Assembly (NCBI GenBank): GCA_030603385.1
Contig: JAUVXW010000051.1
Span: 1 to 11,944 of the forward strand
Origin: Promethearchaeota archaeon
Lineage (GTDB): Archaea; Asgardarchaeota; Lokiarchaeia; Sigyniarchaeales; SOKP01
Direction: 5' to 3'
DNA length: 11,944 nucleotides
The notes under the pieces were generated by a model that was not told where the DNA came from, searched no databases, and worked only from the letters and a program-made list of their open reading frames with translations. Position numbers and translations under genes: made by a program. Every line of letters starts with the position of its first letter. Within the stretch, counting starts at the first letter, position 1. Positions 860 to 11,943 of the stretch are shown in pieces.

Positions 860-1552
860 ATGCCTGAAGAAGAGCGACAGATTTTCACCTGCCCAAAAAA
901 TTAGATGGATTTCCCGTTCGGTTTGGATTGTGGTGCGAAATCTGCCAGAGTGGAAAATATAAAGAAAAGTTCGATTGGTACGTTGGACTGTGATAATTGT
1001 GGTTTATCAAAGGCTGTGCTTGTTAATTCCGTATTAGCCCCTGTCTATGAGTTTGGCTCTTTTATCTATATCGATTCTGCTGTTCAAGAAATTATGCGAT
1101 TAGAGGGCTATTTCGGTTCGTTTGGCGGTGAGAATGAAGGTTATAAGATAAAATTAATTTTTTCTCTTTTACAAGATTTGTGTAAAGCTAAAGCTGCTGA
1201 AGCCTTAGAAGACGATGACGCCTTAGATCTCGCTGAAGTGTTTAAATGGGAAAAGAAGGGATTAGAATATAATCGTCAATTAGAGTGGTTAGAAGAATTT
1301 GTAAAGGAAAATCTGGGAGGTTCTTGGAATGGTATAAAATTTACTGGGCGTGATGGTGGGGGCAGTTCTTATCCCTATCCATATGTTTTTAAACCTCCAT
1401 CTCCACCTGACGATATTGGAGTAGTAATGAATGTGCAGGTTAAACGAGCTTTTAAGGAAGAGACGAGCGATTCTCTAAAATTTTGCTTGTATTGTGGAAG
1501 CAAACTAAGGATAAGCGCAAAGTATTGTCGAGCTTGTGGTAAAAAGTTTTGA
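860..1552 (+). CDS. Elf1-like zinc-ribbon protein with C-terminal extension, paralog 1; predicted spliced CDS join(860..898,929..1552), 220 aa
   Basis: Spliced N-terminus MPEEERQIFTCPK|CGAKSARVENIKKSSIGTLDCDNCGLSKAVLVNSVLAPVYEFGSFI matches the Elf1 pattern F-x-CPxC...G-x-L-x-CxxCG...P(V/I)xxx(G/S)xFI. It is followed by a helical region, YPYPYVFKPPSPPDD and a terminal CLYCG-x9-CRACG ribbon. The ORF track gives only 905..1552. Confidence 0.8.
899..928 (+). other. Predicted 30-nt bulge-helix-bulge mRNA intron 1
   Basis: Central helix CCAA 893-896/TTGG 923-926; 3-nt bulges AAA 897-899 and ATT 927-929; outer exon-exon stem CAGATTTTCACC 878-889/GGTGCGAAATCTG 932-944; inner stem GATGG/CCGTT; in-frame TAG 902-904. 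Confidence 0.78.
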
Positions 1553-1767: not shown

Positions 1768-2511
1768 ATGAGAAGAAGAAAAAGAGAGCATTTAATCGAC
1801 AGGACGGCTCGTTATCCTGTCCACCCGATAATAAATCGCGGTGAAAGAGTCGTAAAAGAAGTATCCAAGACTTTCACCTGCCCAAAAGACTAGATGGGTT
1901 TCCCGTTCAATTTGGATTGTGGTGAGAGATCGGAAGTAACAGAAAAAATTAGAATGAGTCTCTGTGGTACGGTGAAGTGTATTCATTGTTGGACAACATT
2001 GGGTGTTTTAATTAATGTCAAATTAGAACCTATTTATTCGATTGGAGATTTTATTTCGATAAGTCGTGTTGGTCAGGAATTTCAGAGATTGGAGAGTCAC
2101 ATTGAGCAAATTATTAAACTTGAGAAAAAAAGTGCGATGCAGGAAGTGATGTCGTTTTCTCTTATCTTTGAAGAGTTTTGTAGAGCTAAAGTTGACGAAG
2201 CCAGAGAAATCGGAGCTACTGTCAATAGTGATGTAGTAAAAAAGTGGAGTTTTAAAGCAGAAGCGTGTTCTCGCCAAATCAGTAAGTTTTTTATTGAAAG
2301 CAGCCAGTGGAAAAGGGATGGTAATTTTTACCCCTATCCGTATGTTTTTAAACCTCCTGAACCTCCTGGTGATATAGGTGTTGCAACAAATGTGGAGCAA
2401 ACCAGACCCGTAGAGGAGGAAGCACCTGAAGTAGAGTTATTTTGTAGGTATTGTGGGAGCGTGCTTGCGATGGACGAGAGTTATTGTAGTGTCTGTGGGA
2501 AAAACTCCTGA
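1768..2511 (+). CDS. Elf1-like zinc-ribbon protein with C-terminal extension, paralog 2; predicted spliced CDS join(1768..1887,1918..2511), 237 aa
   Basis: Exon 1 MRRRKREHLIDRTARYPVHPIINRGERVVKEVSKTFTCPK is in frame with exon 2 CGERSEVTEKIRMSLCGTVKCIHCW...LEPIYSIGDFI. The basic MRRRKR start is typical of Elf1. It has YPYPYVFKPPEPPGD and a terminal CRYCG-x9-CSVCG as in paralog 1. The ORF track gives only 1894..2511. Confidence 0.82.
1888..1917 (+). other. Predicted 30-nt bulge-helix-bulge mRNA intron 2
   Basis: Central helix CCAA 1882-1885/TTGG 1912-1915; bulges AAG 1886-1888 and ATT 1916-1918; outer stem CTTTCACC 1871-1878/GGTGAGAG 1921-1928; inner stem GATGGG/CCCGTT; in-frame TAG 1891-1893. 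Confidence 0.78.
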
Positions 2512-2603: not shown

Positions 2604-4589
2604 TTAAGTTGATTTTGGAATTAAAATATGATCTTTTAAGAGATTTAGTATTTCAGGTGATATATCTTCAATATAATCAATTATGTCCTTATTCTCAAAA
2701 TTAAGATTAAATTTTTTTCTAATTTCTGATAAAACTTTTTTAGCCTCAATTTTAAATATTCCAATGTCTTCCCAATTTTCCAAAAAATCGTCAACCCAAT
2801 GATTTGAATCACTTTTTACTATTTTAGATAGATGAGTCAGTGCTCTTTTAGAAAAGAGTGTTTCATGAATTTGATTATAAATTTCAACGATATTAGTTGA
2901 TGGGGGGAATTTAGATATTTCTGTTCTTGGACTCAGTGTTTCTCTTAACCTATTTTCAACATAATTTAATAAAAGTTTTGAAAATTGATTATTTATTTGA
3001 TTATGGAATATTTCAGTTAATTTTTCCTTAACATCCTCAAATGATTTTGCTTCTACTCTCTCGAAAACTAATTTTGCTATAGCATCAAGATCAAGAAGGT
3101 AACTCTCGATTTGTCTTTTTTTCCATACATGGACATGAAAAACGTCAAAATTTTTAATTCTTTCTATCTCTTCAGGTGAATCTTCATCTTTGTCTCTGAT
3201 ATATATTATTTTTTTATCCTTTAAGAAATTAGTAAAAAAATCTTTAAATTTATTTAGATCTGTAGAATACCTTTTTTCAATAGGGAAAAATTCATATTTT
3301 AAGAAATCTTGTTTTATTTCATTATCTTTGACATATTTATCAATAAATTTCCTCAATAATACTTCATCTGTCGGGCCCTCAACAAAAATTAACTCTTCTG
3401 CACCTCTGAGCATCTCTCTTTTAAAAATTGAAGGAATTATTCCCATTTGATCTAATTGGTCATATAAATCTAGATCTTCTTCAATTAGTTGATGGGTTGA
3501 ATAACCATCTCTTAGATGAAGCGAGATTATGTTATCTAAAGGTAAATTATCAATAATATTAGGTAAATGAGTAGTGAATATGATTTGCTTCGATTCAGAA
3601 AGAACTTTTAAATATTCAACGAACTGATTTGCTAAGCTAGCGTGAAGATGCGCATCAGGTTCATCGATAAGGACAGTATTAACATCCTCATATCCTATAA
3701 TTGAAAAAATTTGAGTAAAAATTTGTGTTCCACCTCCATAAAGTGTAATATCTCGGTTGAACGAATCAAGAATCAATTTAAAATTACCCATAGTATGATC
3801 TAAATCAATTTTGACATTTTCAATCATTCCAAAATTCTCTTCCATCTTCGACTGAAACTGCTCAAAGGCTCGAGGATTCGTTCTCTTTAAATGAAAAAGT
3901 TGTGCTCGAATGTATTTATTTCTAAATTCCGTTCTAAGTTTCCGTTGTAGTTCGCTGTAAGACATATATTTCTCATTTTTTTGAAATTCGCTTAGATAAG
4001 GGTAAATTATTAGAGGTTTAAATGGAAAACTAGCAGGACTATTATGATAATATAATAAAATCTGAGAAAAATTGACATTCAGCTTACTTTTTGTTGAAAT
4101 TACTCCATCTTCAGTTATAAGTTGCTTAATATCATTTATTGCTTTATAAAACATTGTTTCATTGAAGTTCATACCTCCTCTCTTAATAACTCTTGTCGTT
4201 TCGCTAACAACTTCGATGTCAAGCTGAAATTTAAATACAATATCATTTTCTACAAGAAAAGAAGTTATAATTTCCCATTCATCATTATTAAAACGTCTCC
4301 TTTGCTCTACATCAATTTTTCTTAAATCTTTTAGGGTTAAAATCTCCACTTTTGTCAAACTAACCTCGAGCTCGATTCTAGTAGTAAACGCCGGTTCTTT
4401 AAATTTAGTTGGAAAATCATTTTGAACATCACCGCCAAAATTCATACCAAATATTGCTGCAATTGCCTGAATTATTGATGTTTTACCAGCATTATTTTCC
4501 CCTATAAGAGCATTAATCCCATCTTTAAATTCGATAGTTTGATCTTTAAAATGTTTAAAATTAGTTAATTTAAGCCGTAAAATTTTCAT
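2604..4589 (-). CDS. OLD-family ATP-dependent nuclease (ABC/SMC-type ATPase + TOPRIM)
   Basis: N-terminal LKLTNFKHF, Walker A GENNAGKTS, degenerate signature YGGGTQ, Walker B/D-loop VLIDEPDAHLH, H-switch IFTTH, TOPRIM IFVEGPTDE and RDKD, and RQIESYLL. Confidence 0.9.
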   Translation of the reverse strand: MKILRLKLTNFKHFKDQTIEFKDGINALIGENNAGKTSIIQAIAAIFGMNFGGDVQNDFPTKFKEPAFTTRIELEVSLTKVEILTLKDLRKIDVEQRRRFNNDEWEIITSFLVENDIVFKFQLDIEVVSETTRVIKRGGMNFNETMFYKAINDIKQLITEDGVISTKSKLNVNFSQILLYYHNSPASFPFKPLIIYPYLSEFQKNEKYMSYSELQRKLRTEFRNKYIRAQLFHLKRTNPRAFEQFQSKMEENFGMIENVKIDLDHTMGNFKLILDSFNRDITLYGGGTQIFTQIFSIIGYEDVNTVLIDEPDAHLHASLANQFVEYLKVLSESKQIIFTTHLPNIIDNLPLDNIISLHLRDGYSTHQLIEEDLDLYDQLDQMGIIPSIFKREMLRGAEELIFVEGPTDEVLLRKFIDKYVKDNEIKQDFLKYEFFPIEKRYSTDLNKFKDFFTNFLKDKKIIYIRDKDEDSPEEIERIKNFDVFHVHVWKKRQIESYLLDLDAIAKLVFERVEAKSFEDVKEKLTEIFHNQINNQFSKLLLNYVENRLRETLSPRTEISKFPPSTNIVEIYNQIHETLFSKRALTHLSKIVKSDSNHWVDDFLENWEDIGIFKIEAKKVLSEIRKKFNLNFENKDIIDYIEDISPEILNLLKDHILIPKST

Positions 4590-4850: not shown

Positions 4851-6600
4851 TTGGTCGAGTATCAGATGCTCATTATAGAAGAATTTCGAAAAATTATTTC
4901 GAATGAATTAGGAAATACTTGGGATATAATTCAGAGAGAAATAAAAGAATATTTTAATATAATTGATTTTGCCAACATAAATTATAGGAAAAACTATAGA
5001 AAAATAATCCAACCGCAAGAAGAGATTCTAGATGATCTCCTTAATATTCCAGAAATTTATCCCTTGTTATATGAGATTAAAGAAAGCAATTTTAATAATT
5101 TTGATAGTGATTCAATTACCAAGAATTATAATCATTATGAACACGGTTATTATTTAAGAGATATAATCCTTCCTCAGTTAGATCCGATTGTAAAAAGAAT
5201 AGAAAGTTTTCGAATTGAGAATTTTAATAAATTAGCAGATACTCAGAAAGAAATTCAAATCATCAAGAAATTTATTGATCATAATTTTCAAGATTATGGA
5301 TTAATACATTATGATTCTTATATCAATGTAATAAACGGGGTTGCTTACCATGAGGATTTTTATATCATTTTACCAAACCTTCTCAGATGTGTTTTTGAGA
5401 ATCTGCTTTATGATATTTTTCAAACAGCTCTGGATAAAAAGCACACTGATTTTATCTTTTTGAAGAGTCAGGCAAGAGCAAGAGATTTTTCTCAATTAAT
5501 TGCGTTATTAAATATTCTTAAAGATAAGGGATTCAAACCATATCACAAAGATTCTATTAATCAGAATGTAATTGAGGTATTAAGAGAAATTCAGAAGACC
5601 GGGAATTTATCAGTACATCAAATTCTAAGGCAGATCGACAGAAATTTTGCTGATAATATGAAAGAAAAGGTCAATAGAGTATTATTAGTTTTATTGGTTT
5701 TTTTCACAAAAATTCAAAATAAAAATTTGGTAATAATTGATGAAATTTTAATTGACAAAATTTATAAAACTCTTGGACTTACAGAAACGAAGAAACATAG
5801 AAAATTAATAGATGAGAAGGAGCAGGCATCAAGAATTTCAGCATGGAAGGTTATAATACAAGAGGATAACATTAAAATCGATGAAAAAGCAGTAATTCAA
5901 TCAATTCTACCAGATATTGTTGATGGGAAAATTATAAAAATAAATTGTGGAATTGATGATGAAAAATGGGAAAAACCTAAAAAATTATTAGAATCTGTAA
6001 TAGATGATGTGTTTAATGTGGAAGGCTTTTACAATTACAAATTTGCAGTATTTTCTCTAGCAAGAATTTCATATTCAATCTATTTAGGCTTTCTTCTTAC
6101 AGATCAGGTTAAGATAAGGTATTCCCAATACAATCGGGACTTACAAACTTGGAAATGGGTTAAAGATATACGTGGTTTTGGGTATTCTAGTTTAGACATC
6201 ATAGGATTAGTTAAGAGGAGAAAAAAAAAAAATCACCGAAATTGTAATCAAAATATCTATTTCAGCAAGAATTTTAGATGATGATATCAAAGAATTAGGG
6301 TTAGATCTTAATAATAGAGTTGAACTCAGCGTGATTAAACCTTCAGAAGATTGGCTTATTTCAGAGCATCAGATAGTTAGTGTTGGTCAACTTTTTAGGG
6401 GTATTTTAGCAAATCTAAGGGAAAAACTTCCCAATTTAAATAAAATTCATTTATTTTATGCTGGTCCTACGGCAGGCGCAATTGCTATAGGTCGACAAAT
6501 TAATCCAAGAATGACACCTTTGATTCAACTCTATGAATATAATAGAGCGGATTCGCCCAGATACAAAAAAAGTATTAAATTGGAGGATGATCTCTATTAG
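4851..6600 (+). CDS. CBASS effector: N-terminal HEPN/DUF4145-like domain fused to SAVED; frameshifted at A12 (6221-6232), about 582 aa if one A is removed
   Basis: SAVED motifs span both track ORFs: FAVFSLARISYSIYLGFLL..YSQYNRDLQTWKW (first frame), then ITEIVIKISISARI (open from 6211 in the +1 frame) and IHLFYAGPTAGAIAIGRQIN..IQLYEY. It lies directly upstream of, and overlaps, a CD-NTase. Start uncertain (TTG 4851 or ATG 4866). Confidence 0.85.
6221..6232 (+). repeat. A12 homopolymer at the frameshift point
   Basis: 12 consecutive A; 11 A would give ...LVKRRKKKITEIVIKISIS... in one frame. Confidence 0.9.
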
Positions 6601-7357
6601 TAATGAAAATTATTTAAGAGAACTTCTTGCTACCCAAAATCTAACGAAAAATCAAATTGAAAATTTAAAAAATCAGCGGGATGCAATCGTTGAAGATGTG
6701 GTTAATGAAATTGGGGGGAATCCAACCTTATTTAACGCTGGATCTTATGCTAAGGGTACTATGATTCAAGTTAGCTACGATTTGGATATTGTATTATATT
6801 GGGCAAATAATTTTCGGTATAGTCCTCGTAACCTTTATAATGAAATAGGAAGTGTTCTTCAAAGTAAAGGTAGAAATCCAAAATCTAAAAAAGTAGGATG
6901 GGAAATACCATTTCAAGGAGATTTTCACATAGATGTTATTCCTGGAAAGAAAATCCTAAATAAGCCAAACTATGCATATTTATATAATACTAATACTAAT
7001 AACCGTTTTCAATCAAGTGTCAAAAAACATGTTTCTTTTGTTAAAAAAGCAAATCGCCAGAGTGTAATAAAACTAATGAAATTATGGAAGAAAAGAAAAA
7101 GTGTTCCAATTAAAACTTTTATACTGGAATATATGATTATTGAGGGTTGTAAAAGAGTAAGCCGAAATACTCTGGAACCTCAAATAGGTGCTGCTTTTGA
7201 ATATATCGAAGAAAATATTACTACTAAGAGAATATTAGATCCAGCAAATTCACAAAACATAATTTCAGATGATATTACACAAGAAGAAAAGAATCGAATT
7301 AGAAGGCTCGCAATTCAAGCATTAGATGCTGATAGTTGGAGTAAAGTATTTTTTTAA
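6587..7357 (+). CDS. CBASS cyclic-oligonucleotide synthase (CD-NTase/SMODS, Pol-beta nucleotidyltransferase), about 256 aa
   Basis: GSYAKGT-x6-DLD catalytic motif, third Asp in IDVIPG, IKLMKLWK helix and C-terminal ILDPANSQNII. ATG 6587, overlapping the end of the SAVED gene, is preferred over the track start 6533, although the start is uncertain. Confidence 0.9.
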   Translation: MISISNENYLRELLATQNLTKNQIENLKNQRDAIVEDVVNEIGGNPTLFNAGSYAKGTMIQVSYDLDIVLYWANNFRYSPRNLYNEIGSVLQSKGRNPKSKKVGWEIPFQGDFHIDVIPGKKILNKPNYAYLYNTNTNNRFQSSVKKHVSFVKKANRQSVIKLMKLWKKRKSVPIKTFILEYMIIEGCKRVSRNTLEPQIGAAFEYIEENITTKRILDPANSQNIISDDITQEEKNRIRRLAIQALDADSWSKVFF

Positions 7358-10488: not shown

Positions 10489-11943
10489 TTAAAAAATATT
10501 AATCAACTTTCTTAAATTATCTTGGATTCCGTAAATAGCTATAGATGCTAATAATTTACTAAAATTTTTGAAATTTCTAACTAGTCTGTTATCCTCTATA
10601 GTATCAGCAGTTAAATTACTGGGATCATCTCTGCTACGTTGAATCTCATCTTTATTAGTTGGAATTGTTTTTGTATCTGTTCTGATGGGATTCTCAGCAA
10701 AATAATTTGAATTGGGAGATTCATTATCATTCTTTTCTCTTCCTTCGTTATAACAGTATTGCATAGCACATGCGGTGAAATAAACTGACCAAGCTAACAA
10801 GGTTTCAACTTTATCATAAAATAAACGATGTACACTGTTTTCTCTACCATTGATTTCGATATCTTCCTTCCAATCCCAATAAACATCAGATGAATATGGT
10901 GTATTATTTAAATACAGCCCGCTATTCTCAGCTTCAAATTTATTATTACCTGTAAAAGGTATATGTTGATGATTTCCATCAGTTCTAAAAGCTGTATTAA
11001 TTGTTTCGAGAGCCATGAAGGTTGCAGCAAGACTTGGTGGGGTCGGAATAATTGGACCAAGAATTGCTTTGTGTGTATTCCATGAGAAGAAAACTGTTTC
11101 AGGACCTCCATTAGATCCATATGATTTATCCCATTTTGTTAGACTTGCTAGTTGATTTTCAAACCATGTGTGATACATAGTTTCAAGATAAACATGTTTG
11201 TGTGTTGATGATTTTAAAACATGTGCAGGTACCATTAGGTCCGCAATATAATGAGTCATTGCACCTAACCAACCTGCTGCTGCTTCAGGTTGCATTGCTG
11301 AAACTCTATTTCCATCTTCGTCTATTTTAGTATTTCCAATACACTTGATGGCTTCTTCTCCAAGCAATGTAATTTTATTTATACAAGCTGGATCTTCAAG
11401 ACCAAAAACATACAAGTTATTACCAATATTTTCTTCTTTAAAATGAAAAAGATCTGTTCCGCCTTGTCCAACCCATTTGCCACCCCATCTCTCTAAATCT
11501 TTAACTCTTGTATCTTCATTTTGTATGTAGATTTCTTGAATATCTGGATAGTCGGTCTTTTTCATATCTGGCATCTGTGTTGCAAAAAGAAAAGTGAAAT
11601 AACCTCTAATTATTTCATGCCGATTTGAAGAAGTAAAATAATTAGCTTTCCATGCTGGCCATTTGTTTCTAGCAATATCTGAGTTTATTAACCAAATCCA
11701 ATCACTAAAAAACAATGGATTCTTAATTACATCTCTTAATGTTCGCAATGCAGCGTCTGCTATCCAATCATGAGTTCCATAATGTGAACCATCATAGCCT
11801 TGTGCCCCTGGAACACTACTTTTTCCAAAAACATATTCAGTTGGATTTTTAGGATGTCTATATCTATCATCTGTCATTACTGTGCCAGGAAATCCCATAC
11901 CCCAATAATTAGGACCATTATTACAAGCGATTGTATCCGAAAT
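10489..11943 (-). CDS. Zinc-dependent phospholipase C / S1-P1 nuclease superfamily protein (5' truncated by window)
   Basis: YGTHDWIA, QMPD, GWLGAMTHYIADLMVPAH and YHTWFE are the Zn-ligand motifs of this fold. The frame stays open past the track start 11898 to the window edge (ISDTIACNNGPNYWG-MGFPG). Confidence 0.8.
   Translation of the reverse strand: MSDTIACNNGPNYWGMGFPGTVMTDDRYRHPKNPTEYVFGKSSVPGAQGYDGSHYGTHDWIADAALRTLRDVIKNPLFFSDWIWLINSDIARNKWPAWKANYFTSSNRHEIIRGYFTFLFATQMPDMKKTDYPDIQEIYIQNEDTRVKDLERWGGKWVGQGGTDLFHFKEENIGNNLYVFGLEDPACINKITLLGEEAIKCIGNTKIDEDGNRVSAMQPEAAAGWLGAMTHYIADLMVPAHVLKSSTHKHVYLETMYHTWFENQLASLTKWDKSYGSNGGPETVFFSWNTHKAILGPIIPTPPSLAATFMALETINTAFRTDGNHQHIPFTGNNKFEAENSGLYLNNTPYSSDVYWDWKEDIEINGRENSVHRLFYDKVETLLAWSVYFTACAMQYCYNEGREKNDNESPNSNYFAENPIRTDTKTIPTNKDEIQRSRDDPSNLTADTIEDNRLVRNFKNFSKLLASIAIYGIQDNLRKLINIF

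What the first reader, a model, noticed from the sequence alone, without database searches (positions are those of the whole stretch)
878..944. Candidate tRNA-type (bulge-helix-bulge) intron in a protein-coding gene: precise excision restores CPKCG
Seen: the frame from ATG 860 reads MPEEERQIFTCPK-N*MDFPFGLD-CGAKS. The RNA can fold with a 4-bp helix CCAA(893-896)/UUGG(923-926), 3-nt bulges AAA(897-899) and AUU(927-929) on opposite strands, a long outer stem (878-892 with 930-944) and an inner G-U-rich hairpin. Established: archaeal tRNA splicing endonuclease (EndA) cuts BHB motifs after the second nucleotide of each bulge and RtcB ligates the exons. The well-known mRNA case is crenarchaeal cbf5. 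Inference: those cuts (898|899 and 928|929) remove exactly 30 nt including the TAG and give FTCPK|CG, completing the first knuckle of an Elf1-type zinc ribbon. RNA structure and protein motif independently predict the same junction. I do not recall this being described for Elf1-like genes, but cannot check the literature. Caveats: the inner helix is weak, and a 5-bp CCAAA/UUUGG register competes with the BHB fold.
Basis: partly seen in the sequence, partly recalled or inferred. Interest (0 to 1): 0.95.

Follow-up and report, generated by a model that had tools for sequence, protein, structure and literature searches.

The report
tRNA-type mini-introns in two Elf1-like genes
Two neighbouring genes of a Lokiarchaeial (Asgard) archaeon, both offshoots of transcription factor Elf1, are each broken by a 30-base insert shaped like a tRNA intron. 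Comparison with about 100 related genes shows it is almost certainly cut out of the mRNA, a kind of splicing published for the coding part of only one other archaeal gene (cbf5).

Summary
No RNA data were available.

- **Two copies in the window.** Copy 1 is exon 860-898, insert 899-928, exon 929-1552. Both inserts are 30 nt, carry an in-frame TAG and sit between CPK and CG.
- **The genome's real elf1** lies on another contig and has a 31-nt insert at the same site. That length breaks the reading frame.
- **Relatives.** Among 95 distinct Elf1 genes of related Lokiarchaeia, 34 carry an insert of 28, 30, 31 or 32 nt exactly there. The other 61 read straight through as FTCPxCG.
- **Inserts are not translated.** They hold TAA, TAG or TGA, sometimes two stops.
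- **Structure.** The bulge-helix-bulge (BHB) fold is about 90% paired in two alignments, against at most 52% in shifted controls. It shows compensatory changes, including exon-intron pairs in the central helix.
- **Exon codons.** Those forming the exon-exon stem are fixed in 19/19 insert-bearing alleles against 2/38 insert-less ones.
- **Enzymes.** The genome encodes two EndA homologues and RtcB. No PylS was found.

Splicing gives proteins of 220 and 237 aa with an intact four-cysteine zinc ribbon. This scan had already noted the elf1 insert on other DNA. No paper describing it was found.

The parts
860..898 (+). Copy 1, exon 1 (13 codons, MPEEERQIFTCPK)
   Evidence: It ends with the first half of the CPxC knuckle. 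The splice point is after AAA 896-898.
899..928 (+). Copy 1, 30-nt BHB intron (phase 0) with in-frame TAG 902-904
   Evidence: Homologous inserts lie at the same site in 34 Elf1 orthologs and 5 metagenomic paralogs.
929..1552 (+). Copy 1, exon 2 (207 codons plus stop): rest of the Elf1-like zinc ribbon, a middle region, a YPYPYVFKPP motif and a C-terminal zinc ribbon
   Evidence: It aligns to Pfam Elf1 from profile position 28.
878..892 (+). Copy 1, 5' strand of the exon-exon (outer) helix h
   Evidence: 14 pairs with 930-944, U890 bulged.
930..944 (+). Copy 1, 3' strand of the outer helix h
   Evidence: C936 is bulged.
893..896 (+). Copy 1, central 4-bp helix H, exon strand CCAA
   Evidence: It pairs with 923-926. 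These columns show C-G to U-G/U-A and A-U to G-C changes in homologs.
923..926 (+). Copy 1, central helix H, intron strand UUGG
897..899 (+). Copy 1, 5' bulge AAA; predicted cut at 898|899
   Evidence: The rule of cutting between the 2nd and 3rd bulge base is from PMC2738675.
927..929 (+). Copy 1, 3' bulge AUU; predicted cut at 928|929
900..922 (+). Copy 1, inner intron hairpin h'
   Evidence: The hairpin pairs covary in both alignments.
1768..1887 (+). Copy 2, exon 1 (40 codons, MRRRKREHL...KTFTCPK) with an Elf1-like basic N-terminal tail
   Evidence: The same N-terminal tail is fused in frame to the C-terminal part in P0007/P0008.
1888..1917 (+). Copy 2, 30-nt BHB intron with in-frame TAG 1891-1893
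   Evidence: CCAA 1882-1885 pairs with UUGG 1912-1915. The bulges are AAG 1886-1888 and AUU 1916-1918. The helix just inside the 5' bulge is weak, so the motif is relaxed.
1918..2511 (+). Copy 2, exon 2 (197 codons plus stop)
1869..1931 (+). Copy 2, whole BHB region (outer helix 1869-1878 and 1880-1881 with 1919-1928 and 1930-1931)
   Evidence: the BHB fold is -18.9 kcal/mol against an MFE of -20.2.

Best explanation
Both genes carry a 30-nt archaeal BHB intron inside the first zinc knuckle of an Elf1-derived domain.

**Proposed mechanism**
1. In the pre-mRNA the two exon ends pair with each other (878-892 with 930-944 in copy 1).
2. The last exon bases, CCAA, pair with the intron's UUGG.
3. 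This leaves two 3-nt bulges on opposite strands.
4. The host's two-subunit tRNA-splicing endonuclease (EndA) cuts between the 2nd and 3rd base of each bulge: 898|899 and 928|929 in copy 1, 1887|1888 and 1917|1918 in copy 2.
5. RtcB joins the exons and probably circularises the intron.
6. The spliced mRNAs encode proteins of 220 and 237 aa with an intact CPKCG...CxxC zinc ribbon.

**Origin.** The intron was inherited from an intron-bearing elf1 gene of the Lokiarchaeial family. It most resembles the 30-nt class found in a sister genus.

**Shown and inferred.** Shown: the structure, its conservation and covariation, precise presence/absence among orthologs, and the presence of the enzymes. Inferred: the cleavage, the ligation and the expression of these two paralogs.
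For: 1. **Same site in three genes of this genome.** The elf1 copy has a 31-nt insert with TGA and TAA that shifts the frame.
2. **Presence/absence among relatives.** Of 95 distinct Elf1 genes of relatives, 34 carry an insert of 28, 30, 31 or 32 nt at exactly this site and 61 are continuous. Close pairs differ only by the insert, for example L005 against L006.
3. **Covariation.** On 20 sequences, 90% of cells are paired, 11 pairs change on both sides, 0/500 shuffles reach this, and slid controls reach at most 52%. The third base of the Pro codon covaries with an intron base (AU 14, UA 4, GC 2). On the 30-nt class, 89% are paired against at most 50% in controls.
4. **Exon codons of the outer stem.** They are fixed as TTC-ACC...GGT in 19/19 insert-bearing alleles against 2/38 insert-less alleles.
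5. **Independent metagenome contigs.** Five of the window-type paralog all carry the 30-nt insert. The stop is TAA or TAG, two contigs have two stops, two lack any in-frame ATG, and one shows a compensatory CCAA/UUGG to UCAA/UUGA change.
6. **Profile scores.** An HMM of 51 insert-less Elf1 proteins scores the spliced forms 83.7 and 72.7 bits. Read-through gives 70.1 and 58.4, and the ORF from the internal ATG gives 68.7 and 51.8.
7. **Enzymes.** There are two EndA homologues. One is closest to the solved Aeropyrum pernix EndA chain 3p1z_B; the other is more divergent. RtcB scores 558 bits. Asgard archaea are reported to have broad-specificity (alpha-beta)2 EndA (PMC5829648).
8. **Energy.** The BHB fold lies within 0.7-1.3 kcal/mol of the MFE.
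Against: - No transcript, junction read, circular intron or cleavage assay exists for any of these genes, and no RNA run was listed.
- In the thermodynamic model the BHB fold is not the MFE. It takes only 4-6% of the ensemble.
- In copy 2 the helix just inside the 5' bulge is poor, which makes it a relaxed motif.
- In many elf1 orthologs the central helix has 3 Watson-Crick pairs plus one mismatch.
- Both window inserts are in frame and are followed at once by an in-frame ATG. An unspliced mRNA could therefore still give an N-terminally truncated protein.
- The window is a short contig (11.9 kb) of a MAG with 7% estimated contamination, so its host assignment is less sure than for the elf1 contig.
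Confidence: 0.86

Rival explanations
1. The insert is not removed. Translation stops at TAG and restarts at the adjacent ATG (905 or 1894). The real product is then the 215-aa or 205-aa protein without the first zinc knuckle, as gene callers annotate it.
For: TAG is followed directly by an in-frame ATG in both window copies. Database proteins of the family are called this way, for example P0004 and P0005.
Against: - Homologs L150 and L152 have no in-frame ATG in the insert, and L151 and L152 have a second stop after it.
- The upstream FTC(P/S)K and the Elf1-like MRRRK tail are conserved as coding sequence.
- A truncated protein would lack two of the four zinc ligands.
- RNA covariation and the fixed exon codons have no explanation under this reading.
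- It could still occur as a minor by-product of unspliced mRNA.
Confidence: 0.07
2. The two window genes are decaying or silent paralogs. They merely inherited the insert and its structure from elf1, so nothing functional is made from them.
For: No full-length ortholog was found in 134 other genomes of the family. Branches in the tree are very long. Copy 1 has lost the basic N-terminal tail. A neighbouring gene on the contig is frameshifted.
Against: - Both exon-2 frames stay open for 197-207 codons in a genome of 31% G+C.
- Both keep all four zinc-ribbon cysteines and the C-terminal zinc ribbon.
- Five metagenome contigs keep the same architecture and the same BHB, with compensatory changes.
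Confidence: 0.05
3. The stop codon is read through or recoded (for example TAG as pyrrolysine), or the ribosome hops over the insert, so the mRNA is never cut.
For: Both window inserts are 30 nt, in frame, with a single TAG. ARAGORN proposed one tRNA with a CUA anticodon.
Against: - Homologous inserts of 28, 31 and 32 nt break the frame.
- Family members use TAA or carry two stops.
- No PylS was found: the best match is 29 bits against a cut-off of 178.
- The ARAGORN call is a poorly formed, intron-split model.
- There are no matching take-off and landing codons for hopping (AAA against GAU).
Confidence: 0.02

Closest known systems
BHB intron in the cbf5 pre-mRNA of Crenarchaeota (Watanabe et al. 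2002; Yoshinari et al. 2006; Yokobori et al. 2009, PMC2738675)
   Same: It is a short intron inside a protein-coding sequence with a BHB-like, often relaxed, motif. It is cut by a hetero-oligomeric EndA between the 2nd and 3rd bulge base. Its distribution among related species is patchy, which implies gain and precise loss.
   Different: The gene is different (Elf1 family, not a pseudouridine synthase) and so is the phylum (Asgard/Lokiarchaeia). Here the intron has also been carried into duplicated, diverged paralogs. For cbf5, splicing was shown with cDNA and enzyme assays; here it is inferred.
BHB introns of archaeal pre-tRNAs and pre-rRNAs
   Same: The motif is the same (two 3-nt bulges, a 4-bp helix and flanking helices). 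The enzymes are the same (EndA, RtcB), and the host encodes them. Asgard tRNA genes are heavily interrupted (bioRxiv 10.64898/2026.10.13.758758).
   Different: The substrate is an mRNA. The outer helix is built from codons of two exons, so protein and RNA constraints overlap.
BHB intron in the 5' UTR of Haloferax volcanii HVO_1309 mRNA (PMC7714728)
   Same: It is an mRNA substrate of the splicing endonuclease.
   Different: That intron lies in the untranslated leader. Here it interrupts the coding sequence and carries a stop codon.
Elf1 (Pfam PF05129, Zn_ribbon_Elf1), the transcription elongation factor of eukaryotes and archaea
   Same: The window proteins have a four-cysteine zinc ribbon that aligns to Elf1 from profile position 28. 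They are 47% identical to the genome's own Elf1 over about 120 residues. Copy 2 keeps the basic MRRRKR tail.
   Different: They score below Pfam's threshold (17-19 bits against 29.8). They carry a different C-terminal half: a YPYPYVFKPP motif plus a second zinc ribbon. They sit in tandem next to defence-type genes. Their function is unknown.

Membership tests
Archaeal BHB (EndA-dependent) intron | Two 3-nt bulges on opposite strands separated by a 4-bp helix | tested here: met
   Copy 1: CCAA/UUGG with bulges AAA and AUU. Copy 2: the same helix with bulges AAG and AUU.
Archaeal BHB (EndA-dependent) intron | Flanking helices h (exon-exon) and h' (intron hairpin) | tested here: met
   Copy 1 has 14 outer pairs and 8 inner pairs. 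In copy 2 h' next to the bulge is weak, so the motif is relaxed. Both helices covary in homologs.
Archaeal BHB (EndA-dependent) intron | Cuts between the 2nd and 3rd bulge base give a functional product | tested here: met
   The cuts give CPKCG in both copies, matching insert-less orthologs. The spliced forms gain about 14 bits against an Elf1 HMM. The cut rule is from PMC2738675.
Archaeal BHB (EndA-dependent) intron | Homologs that lack precisely the intron | tested here: met
   61 insert-less and 34 insert-bearing distinct Elf1 genes were found. The site is identical and lengths are 28-32 nt.
Archaeal BHB (EndA-dependent) intron | Host encodes the splicing endonuclease and the RtcB ligase | tested here: met
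   Two EndA genes score 99 and 71 bits to PF01974. One is closest to the solved Aeropyrum pernix EndA chain 3p1z_B. RtcB scores 558 bits.
Archaeal BHB (EndA-dependent) intron | Spliced RNA, circular intron or in vitro cleavage observed | not testable with these tools
   No RNA run holder was listed. Cultured Lokiarchaeia-sized closed genomes lack the insert.
Elf1 (PF05129) | Score above Pfam's gathering threshold | tested here: not met
   Window exon 2 scores 17.4-19.3 bits against 29.8, and copy 2 has no hit. The insert-less ortholog of the genome's own elf1 scores 67.4 bits. The window genes are Elf1-derived paralogs, not Elf1 proper.
Elf1 (PF05129) | Four-cysteine zinc ribbon CxxC...CxxC after a basic N-terminal tail | tested here: met
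   After splicing, copy 1 reads CPKC...CDNC and copy 2 reads CPKC...CIHC. The basic tail is present in copy 2 only.
Pyrrolysine / TAG recoding | PylS and a genuine tRNA-Pyl in the genome | tested here: not met
   The best TIGR02367 match is 29 bits against a cut-off of 178. The ARAGORN tRNA(CUA) is a poor split model.
Programmed translational bypass (T4 gene 60 type) | Matching take-off and landing codons flanking the gap | tested here: not met
   The codons are AAA before the gap and GAU at its end. Gap length varies from 28 to 32 nt among homologs.

The most novel reading that the evidence does not exclude
EndA/RtcB splicing of mRNAs may be a regular feature of gene expression in this family of Lokiarchaeia (Asgard archaea). 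Under this reading the elf1 intron has persisted for a long time and was lost precisely several times. It travelled with the gene into new paralogs, and it acts as a switch: unspliced mRNA gives only a short peptide or a zinc-ribbon-less protein, while spliced mRNA gives the full factor. This would be protein-enzyme mRNA splicing controlling a eukaryote-type transcription factor in the closest prokaryotic relatives of eukaryotes.
Probability: 0.25. Interest if true: 0.88.

Novelty: new member of a known kind. Interest (0 to 1): 0.72.

Why it matters
Introns of the tRNA type inside archaeal coding sequences are published for one gene only, cbf5 of Crenarchaeota. One further case lies in a 5' UTR (PMC7714728).

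This finding adds a second gene family, and it lies in Asgard archaea. The data show that such an intron can survive gene duplication and divergence. They also show that it constrains synonymous codons of both exons, and that it is repeatedly and precisely lost.

There is a practical consequence too. Gene callers truncate these genes: database entries start at MGFPF..., MDCG... or VECG.... Elf1 and its paralogs are therefore mis-annotated in many Lokiarchaeial MAGs.

The claim is directly testable with RT-PCR or an EndA assay.

Tried and rejected
- **Sequencing runs.** No RNA holder was listed. Only DNA or unknown runs held small shares (at most 0.14) of the window's words. I did not lay them, so they say nothing on expression or habitat.
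- **Spliced or insert-less window paralog.** I searched JGI metagenome contigs with the 22-nt junction pattern. The two hits were unrelated FTCPKCG zinc-ribbon genes.
- **Viral contigs.** No relative of the window protein was found.
- **Elf1 in other Lokiarchaeial families.** These included closed genomes of 4.36 and 6.04 Mb. All are uninterrupted, so no cultured-strain RNA data can be brought to bear.
- **Pyrrolysine reading.** Rejected.
- **Second intron in the split SAVED gene at 6281/6331.** Rejected; it is a frameshift in an A12 run.
- **Pfam score of the spliced window proteins.** Not run, because the joined sequence has no reference. A home-built HMM of insert-less orthologs was used instead.
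- **Careful tree search.** It did not finish. Only the quick tree was used, and the window copies sit on very long branches, so their exact placement is unsure.
- **Literature.** No paper links Elf1 with a BHB intron. The library lacks most subscription journals.

Full report
**1. The observation**

The window is the whole 11,944-bp contig C2 of an archaeal MAG: 3.89 Mb, 58 contigs, 30.8% G+C, 94% complete, 7% contamination. From ATG 860 the frame reads MPEEERQIFTCPKN, then TAG at 902-904, then MDFPFGLDCGAKS.

- CCAA 893-896 can pair with UUGG 923-926.
- AAA 897-899 and AUU 927-929 are then 3-nt bulges on opposite strands.
- 878-892 pairs with 930-944 through 14 pairs, with U890 and C936 bulged.
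- 900-922 forms a hairpin of 8 pairs, half of them G-U.

This complete hBHBh' fold costs -18.3 kcal/mol against an MFE of -19.0. It takes about 6% of the ensemble. The 67-nt region folds only moderately better than shuffles: z = -2.2, with 8 of 200 as good. The structure alone would therefore not carry the claim.

**2.

A tandem paralog lies 989 nt downstream. ATG 1768 reads MRRRKREHL...KTFTCPKD, then TAG at 1891-1893, then MGFPFNLDCGERS. The two copies are about 36-41% identical as proteins. The 30-nt insert, however, differs at only 5 positions.

A tblastn search of the genome found a third relative on contig C39. It is a typical Elf1 (MGRRKRK...KIFTCPD). It is followed by TGA and TAA, and the rest (CGEKSVKV...KCGNC...EPVD) resumes in another frame after a 31-nt insert. 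A 31-nt insert cannot be bridged by read-through.

**3. Comparison with relatives**

The organism belongs to Promethearchaeota/Lokiarchaeia by the titles of near-identical MAG records. I collected Elf1 loci from related genomes and read the junction in each.

- Among 95 distinct Elf1 rows, 61 are continuous (FTCPxCG).
- The other 34 carry an insert at exactly this point: 19 of 31 nt, 8 of 30 nt, 6 of 32 nt and 1 of 28 nt.
- All insert-bearing genes are in the window's own family (f1).
- The Elf1-type genes read in other Lokiarchaeial families are continuous. These include closed genomes of 4.36 and 6.04 Mb.
- An insert-less ortholog is a bona fide Elf1: PF05129, 67.4 bits, profile positions 1-77 of 79.
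- Exon 2 of the genome's own elf1 and of window copy 1 both start at profile position 28.
- Close sequence pairs differ only in the insert, for example L005 against L006 and L090 against L091.
- A quick tree needs at least 5 gains or losses on well-supported branches. This resembles the cbf5 story (PMC2738675).

**4. RNA structure in the homologs**

I wrote the BHB as a column structure and counted pairs on two alignments.

| Alignment | Sequences | Cells paired | Slid controls | Pairs changed on both sides | Shuffles reaching the observed score |
|---|---|---|---|---|---|
| A2 | 18 elf1 inserts plus both window copies | 90% | 44-52% | 11 | 0/500 |
| A3 | 30-nt class: window copies, 5 metagenome paralogs, 8 elf1 of a sister genus | 89% | 36-50% | 5 | 0/500 |

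- In A2 the third base of the Pro codon (exon) covaries with an intron base: AU 14, UA 4, GC 2. This is direct support for the exon-intron central helix.
- In A3 the central helix shows C-G to U-G/U-A and A-U to G-C changes, and the outer stem shows U-A against C-G.
- The central helix is fully Watson-Crick in the window copies. In many elf1 orthologs it has one mismatch, so those motifs are relaxed.
- In the window's genus, the exon codons that build the outer stem are fixed as TTC-ACC...GGT in 19/19 insert-bearing alleles and in only 2/38 insert-less alleles. The sequences are related, so the Fisher p-value overstates the significance, but the contrast is stark.

**5. More members of the window-type paralog**

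A protein search found seven homologs of about 40% identity in metagenomes. Their called N-termini begin at MGFPFNLDCG, MDCG, MNCG or VECG, which is at or inside the insert.

The five contigs I fetched all carry a 30-nt insert at the same site.

- The stop is TAA in four and TAG in one.
- L151 and L152 have two stops.
- L150 and L152 have no in-frame ATG.
- L151 has CCAA/UUGG changed to UCAA/UUGA, which is compensatory.

None was found.

P0007 and P0008 carry the exon-1-like tail (MRRRKREHLID...) fused in frame to the C-terminal part, but they lack the zinc ribbon. This shows that exon 1 belongs to the same protein.

**6. Splice product**

Cutting between the 2nd and 3rd bulge base (the rule stated in PMC2738675) removes 899-928 and 1888-1917. 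The products are proteins of 220 and 237 aa reading CPKCG. Scores against an HMM built from 51 insert-less Elf1 proteins:

| Form | Copy 1 (bits) | Copy 2 (bits) |
|---|---|---|
| Spliced | 83.7 | 72.7 |
| Read-through | 70.1 | 58.4 |
| ORF from the internal ATG | 68.7 | 51.8 |

**7. Machinery**

- The genome has two EndA homologues of 198 and 200 aa.
- One is closest to the solved Aeropyrum pernix EndA chain 3p1z_B (127 bits). The other is more divergent, with a weak beta-subunit match.
- RtcB is present at 558 bits.
- Asgard archaea are reported to have (alpha-beta)2 EndA with the L1 loop that allows relaxed BHB motifs (PMC5829648).
- PylS was not found: 29 bits against a cut-off of 178.
- The ARAGORN tRNA(CUA) call is a badly formed split model.

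**8. Origin of the window copies**

Their inserts and proteins are closest to the 30-nt elf1 class of a sister genus: 49-53% identity, against 47-48% to the genome's own elf1. They group with that class in the quick tree, but on very long branches.

No full-length ortholog of the architecture (Elf1-like ribbon, then YPYPYVFKPP, then a C-terminal zinc ribbon) was found in 134 other genomes of the family or in viral contigs. The genes sit beside an OLD-type ATPase and a SMODS/SAVED pair.

I read them as diverged duplicates of an intron-bearing elf1. They may have been acquired from a related lineage, or the short contig may be mis-binned. Their function is unknown.

**9. Comparison with what is known, and verdict**

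The closest known case is the cbf5 intron of Crenarchaeota. A 2020 paper states that cbf5 was then the only reported BHB intron beyond tRNA and rRNA, and it adds one in a 5' UTR (PMC7714728).

My searches found no paper linking Elf1 to such an intron. The library is incomplete.

Earlier notes of this scan describe the elf1 insert in other genomes and on contig C39 of this genome. I had found the C39 copy independently and I verified it.

The finding is a new member of a known kind. New here is that two diverged paralogs keep the intron. Splicing itself remains inferred, with confidence 0.86.

Noticed in passing
window 4851-6600 (A-run at 6220-6231): A SAVED-domain effector gene is split into two ORFs (4851-6281 and 6331-6600). 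The cause is a one-base frame change inside a run of 12 A's. It is either a sequencing or assembly error in a homopolymer or a real frameshift, not an intron.
   Followed up: partly
window 2604-4589 (-), 6533-7357 (+), 10489-11898 (-): The contig looks like a defence island. It holds an OLD-type AAA ATPase with a TOPRIM trace, a SMODS-like nucleotidyltransferase next to the SAVED gene (a CBASS-like pair), and a protein with a weak zinc-dependent phospholipase C match. Matches to SMODS and PLC are below Pfam thresholds.
   Followed up: no
P0007, P0008 (metagenome homologs of window copy 2): Two homologs keep the exon-1-like tail MRRRKREHLID... and the C-terminal half in one open frame but lack the whole Elf1-like zinc ribbon (and with it the intron). 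They look like an in-frame deletion variant.
   Followed up: no
L025, L015, L031 and other elf1 loci of the same genus: The 31-nt elf1 insert of this genus is flanked by a 5-nt direct repeat (GAATG...GAATG) that occurs once in insert-less alleles. This leaves the exact cut register ambiguous. It could also be a footprint of how the intron was inserted.
   Followed up: no
G000 whole genome: ARAGORN recognises only 18 tRNA genes in 3.9 Mb, 7 of them with introns. This fits reports that Asgard tRNA genes are heavily interrupted and escape standard finders.
   Followed up: no
L053 and L092 (insert-less elf1 alleles): Two insert-less alleles still carry the exon codons TTC-ACC...GGT that are typical of insert-bearing alleles, as expected shortly after a precise intron loss.
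   Followed up: no
window as a whole (contig C2): The window paralogs are nearer to elf1 of a sister genus than to the elf1 of their own MAG. The contig is short and the MAG has 7% estimated contamination, so mis-binning or horizontal transfer of this contig is possible.
   Followed up: partly
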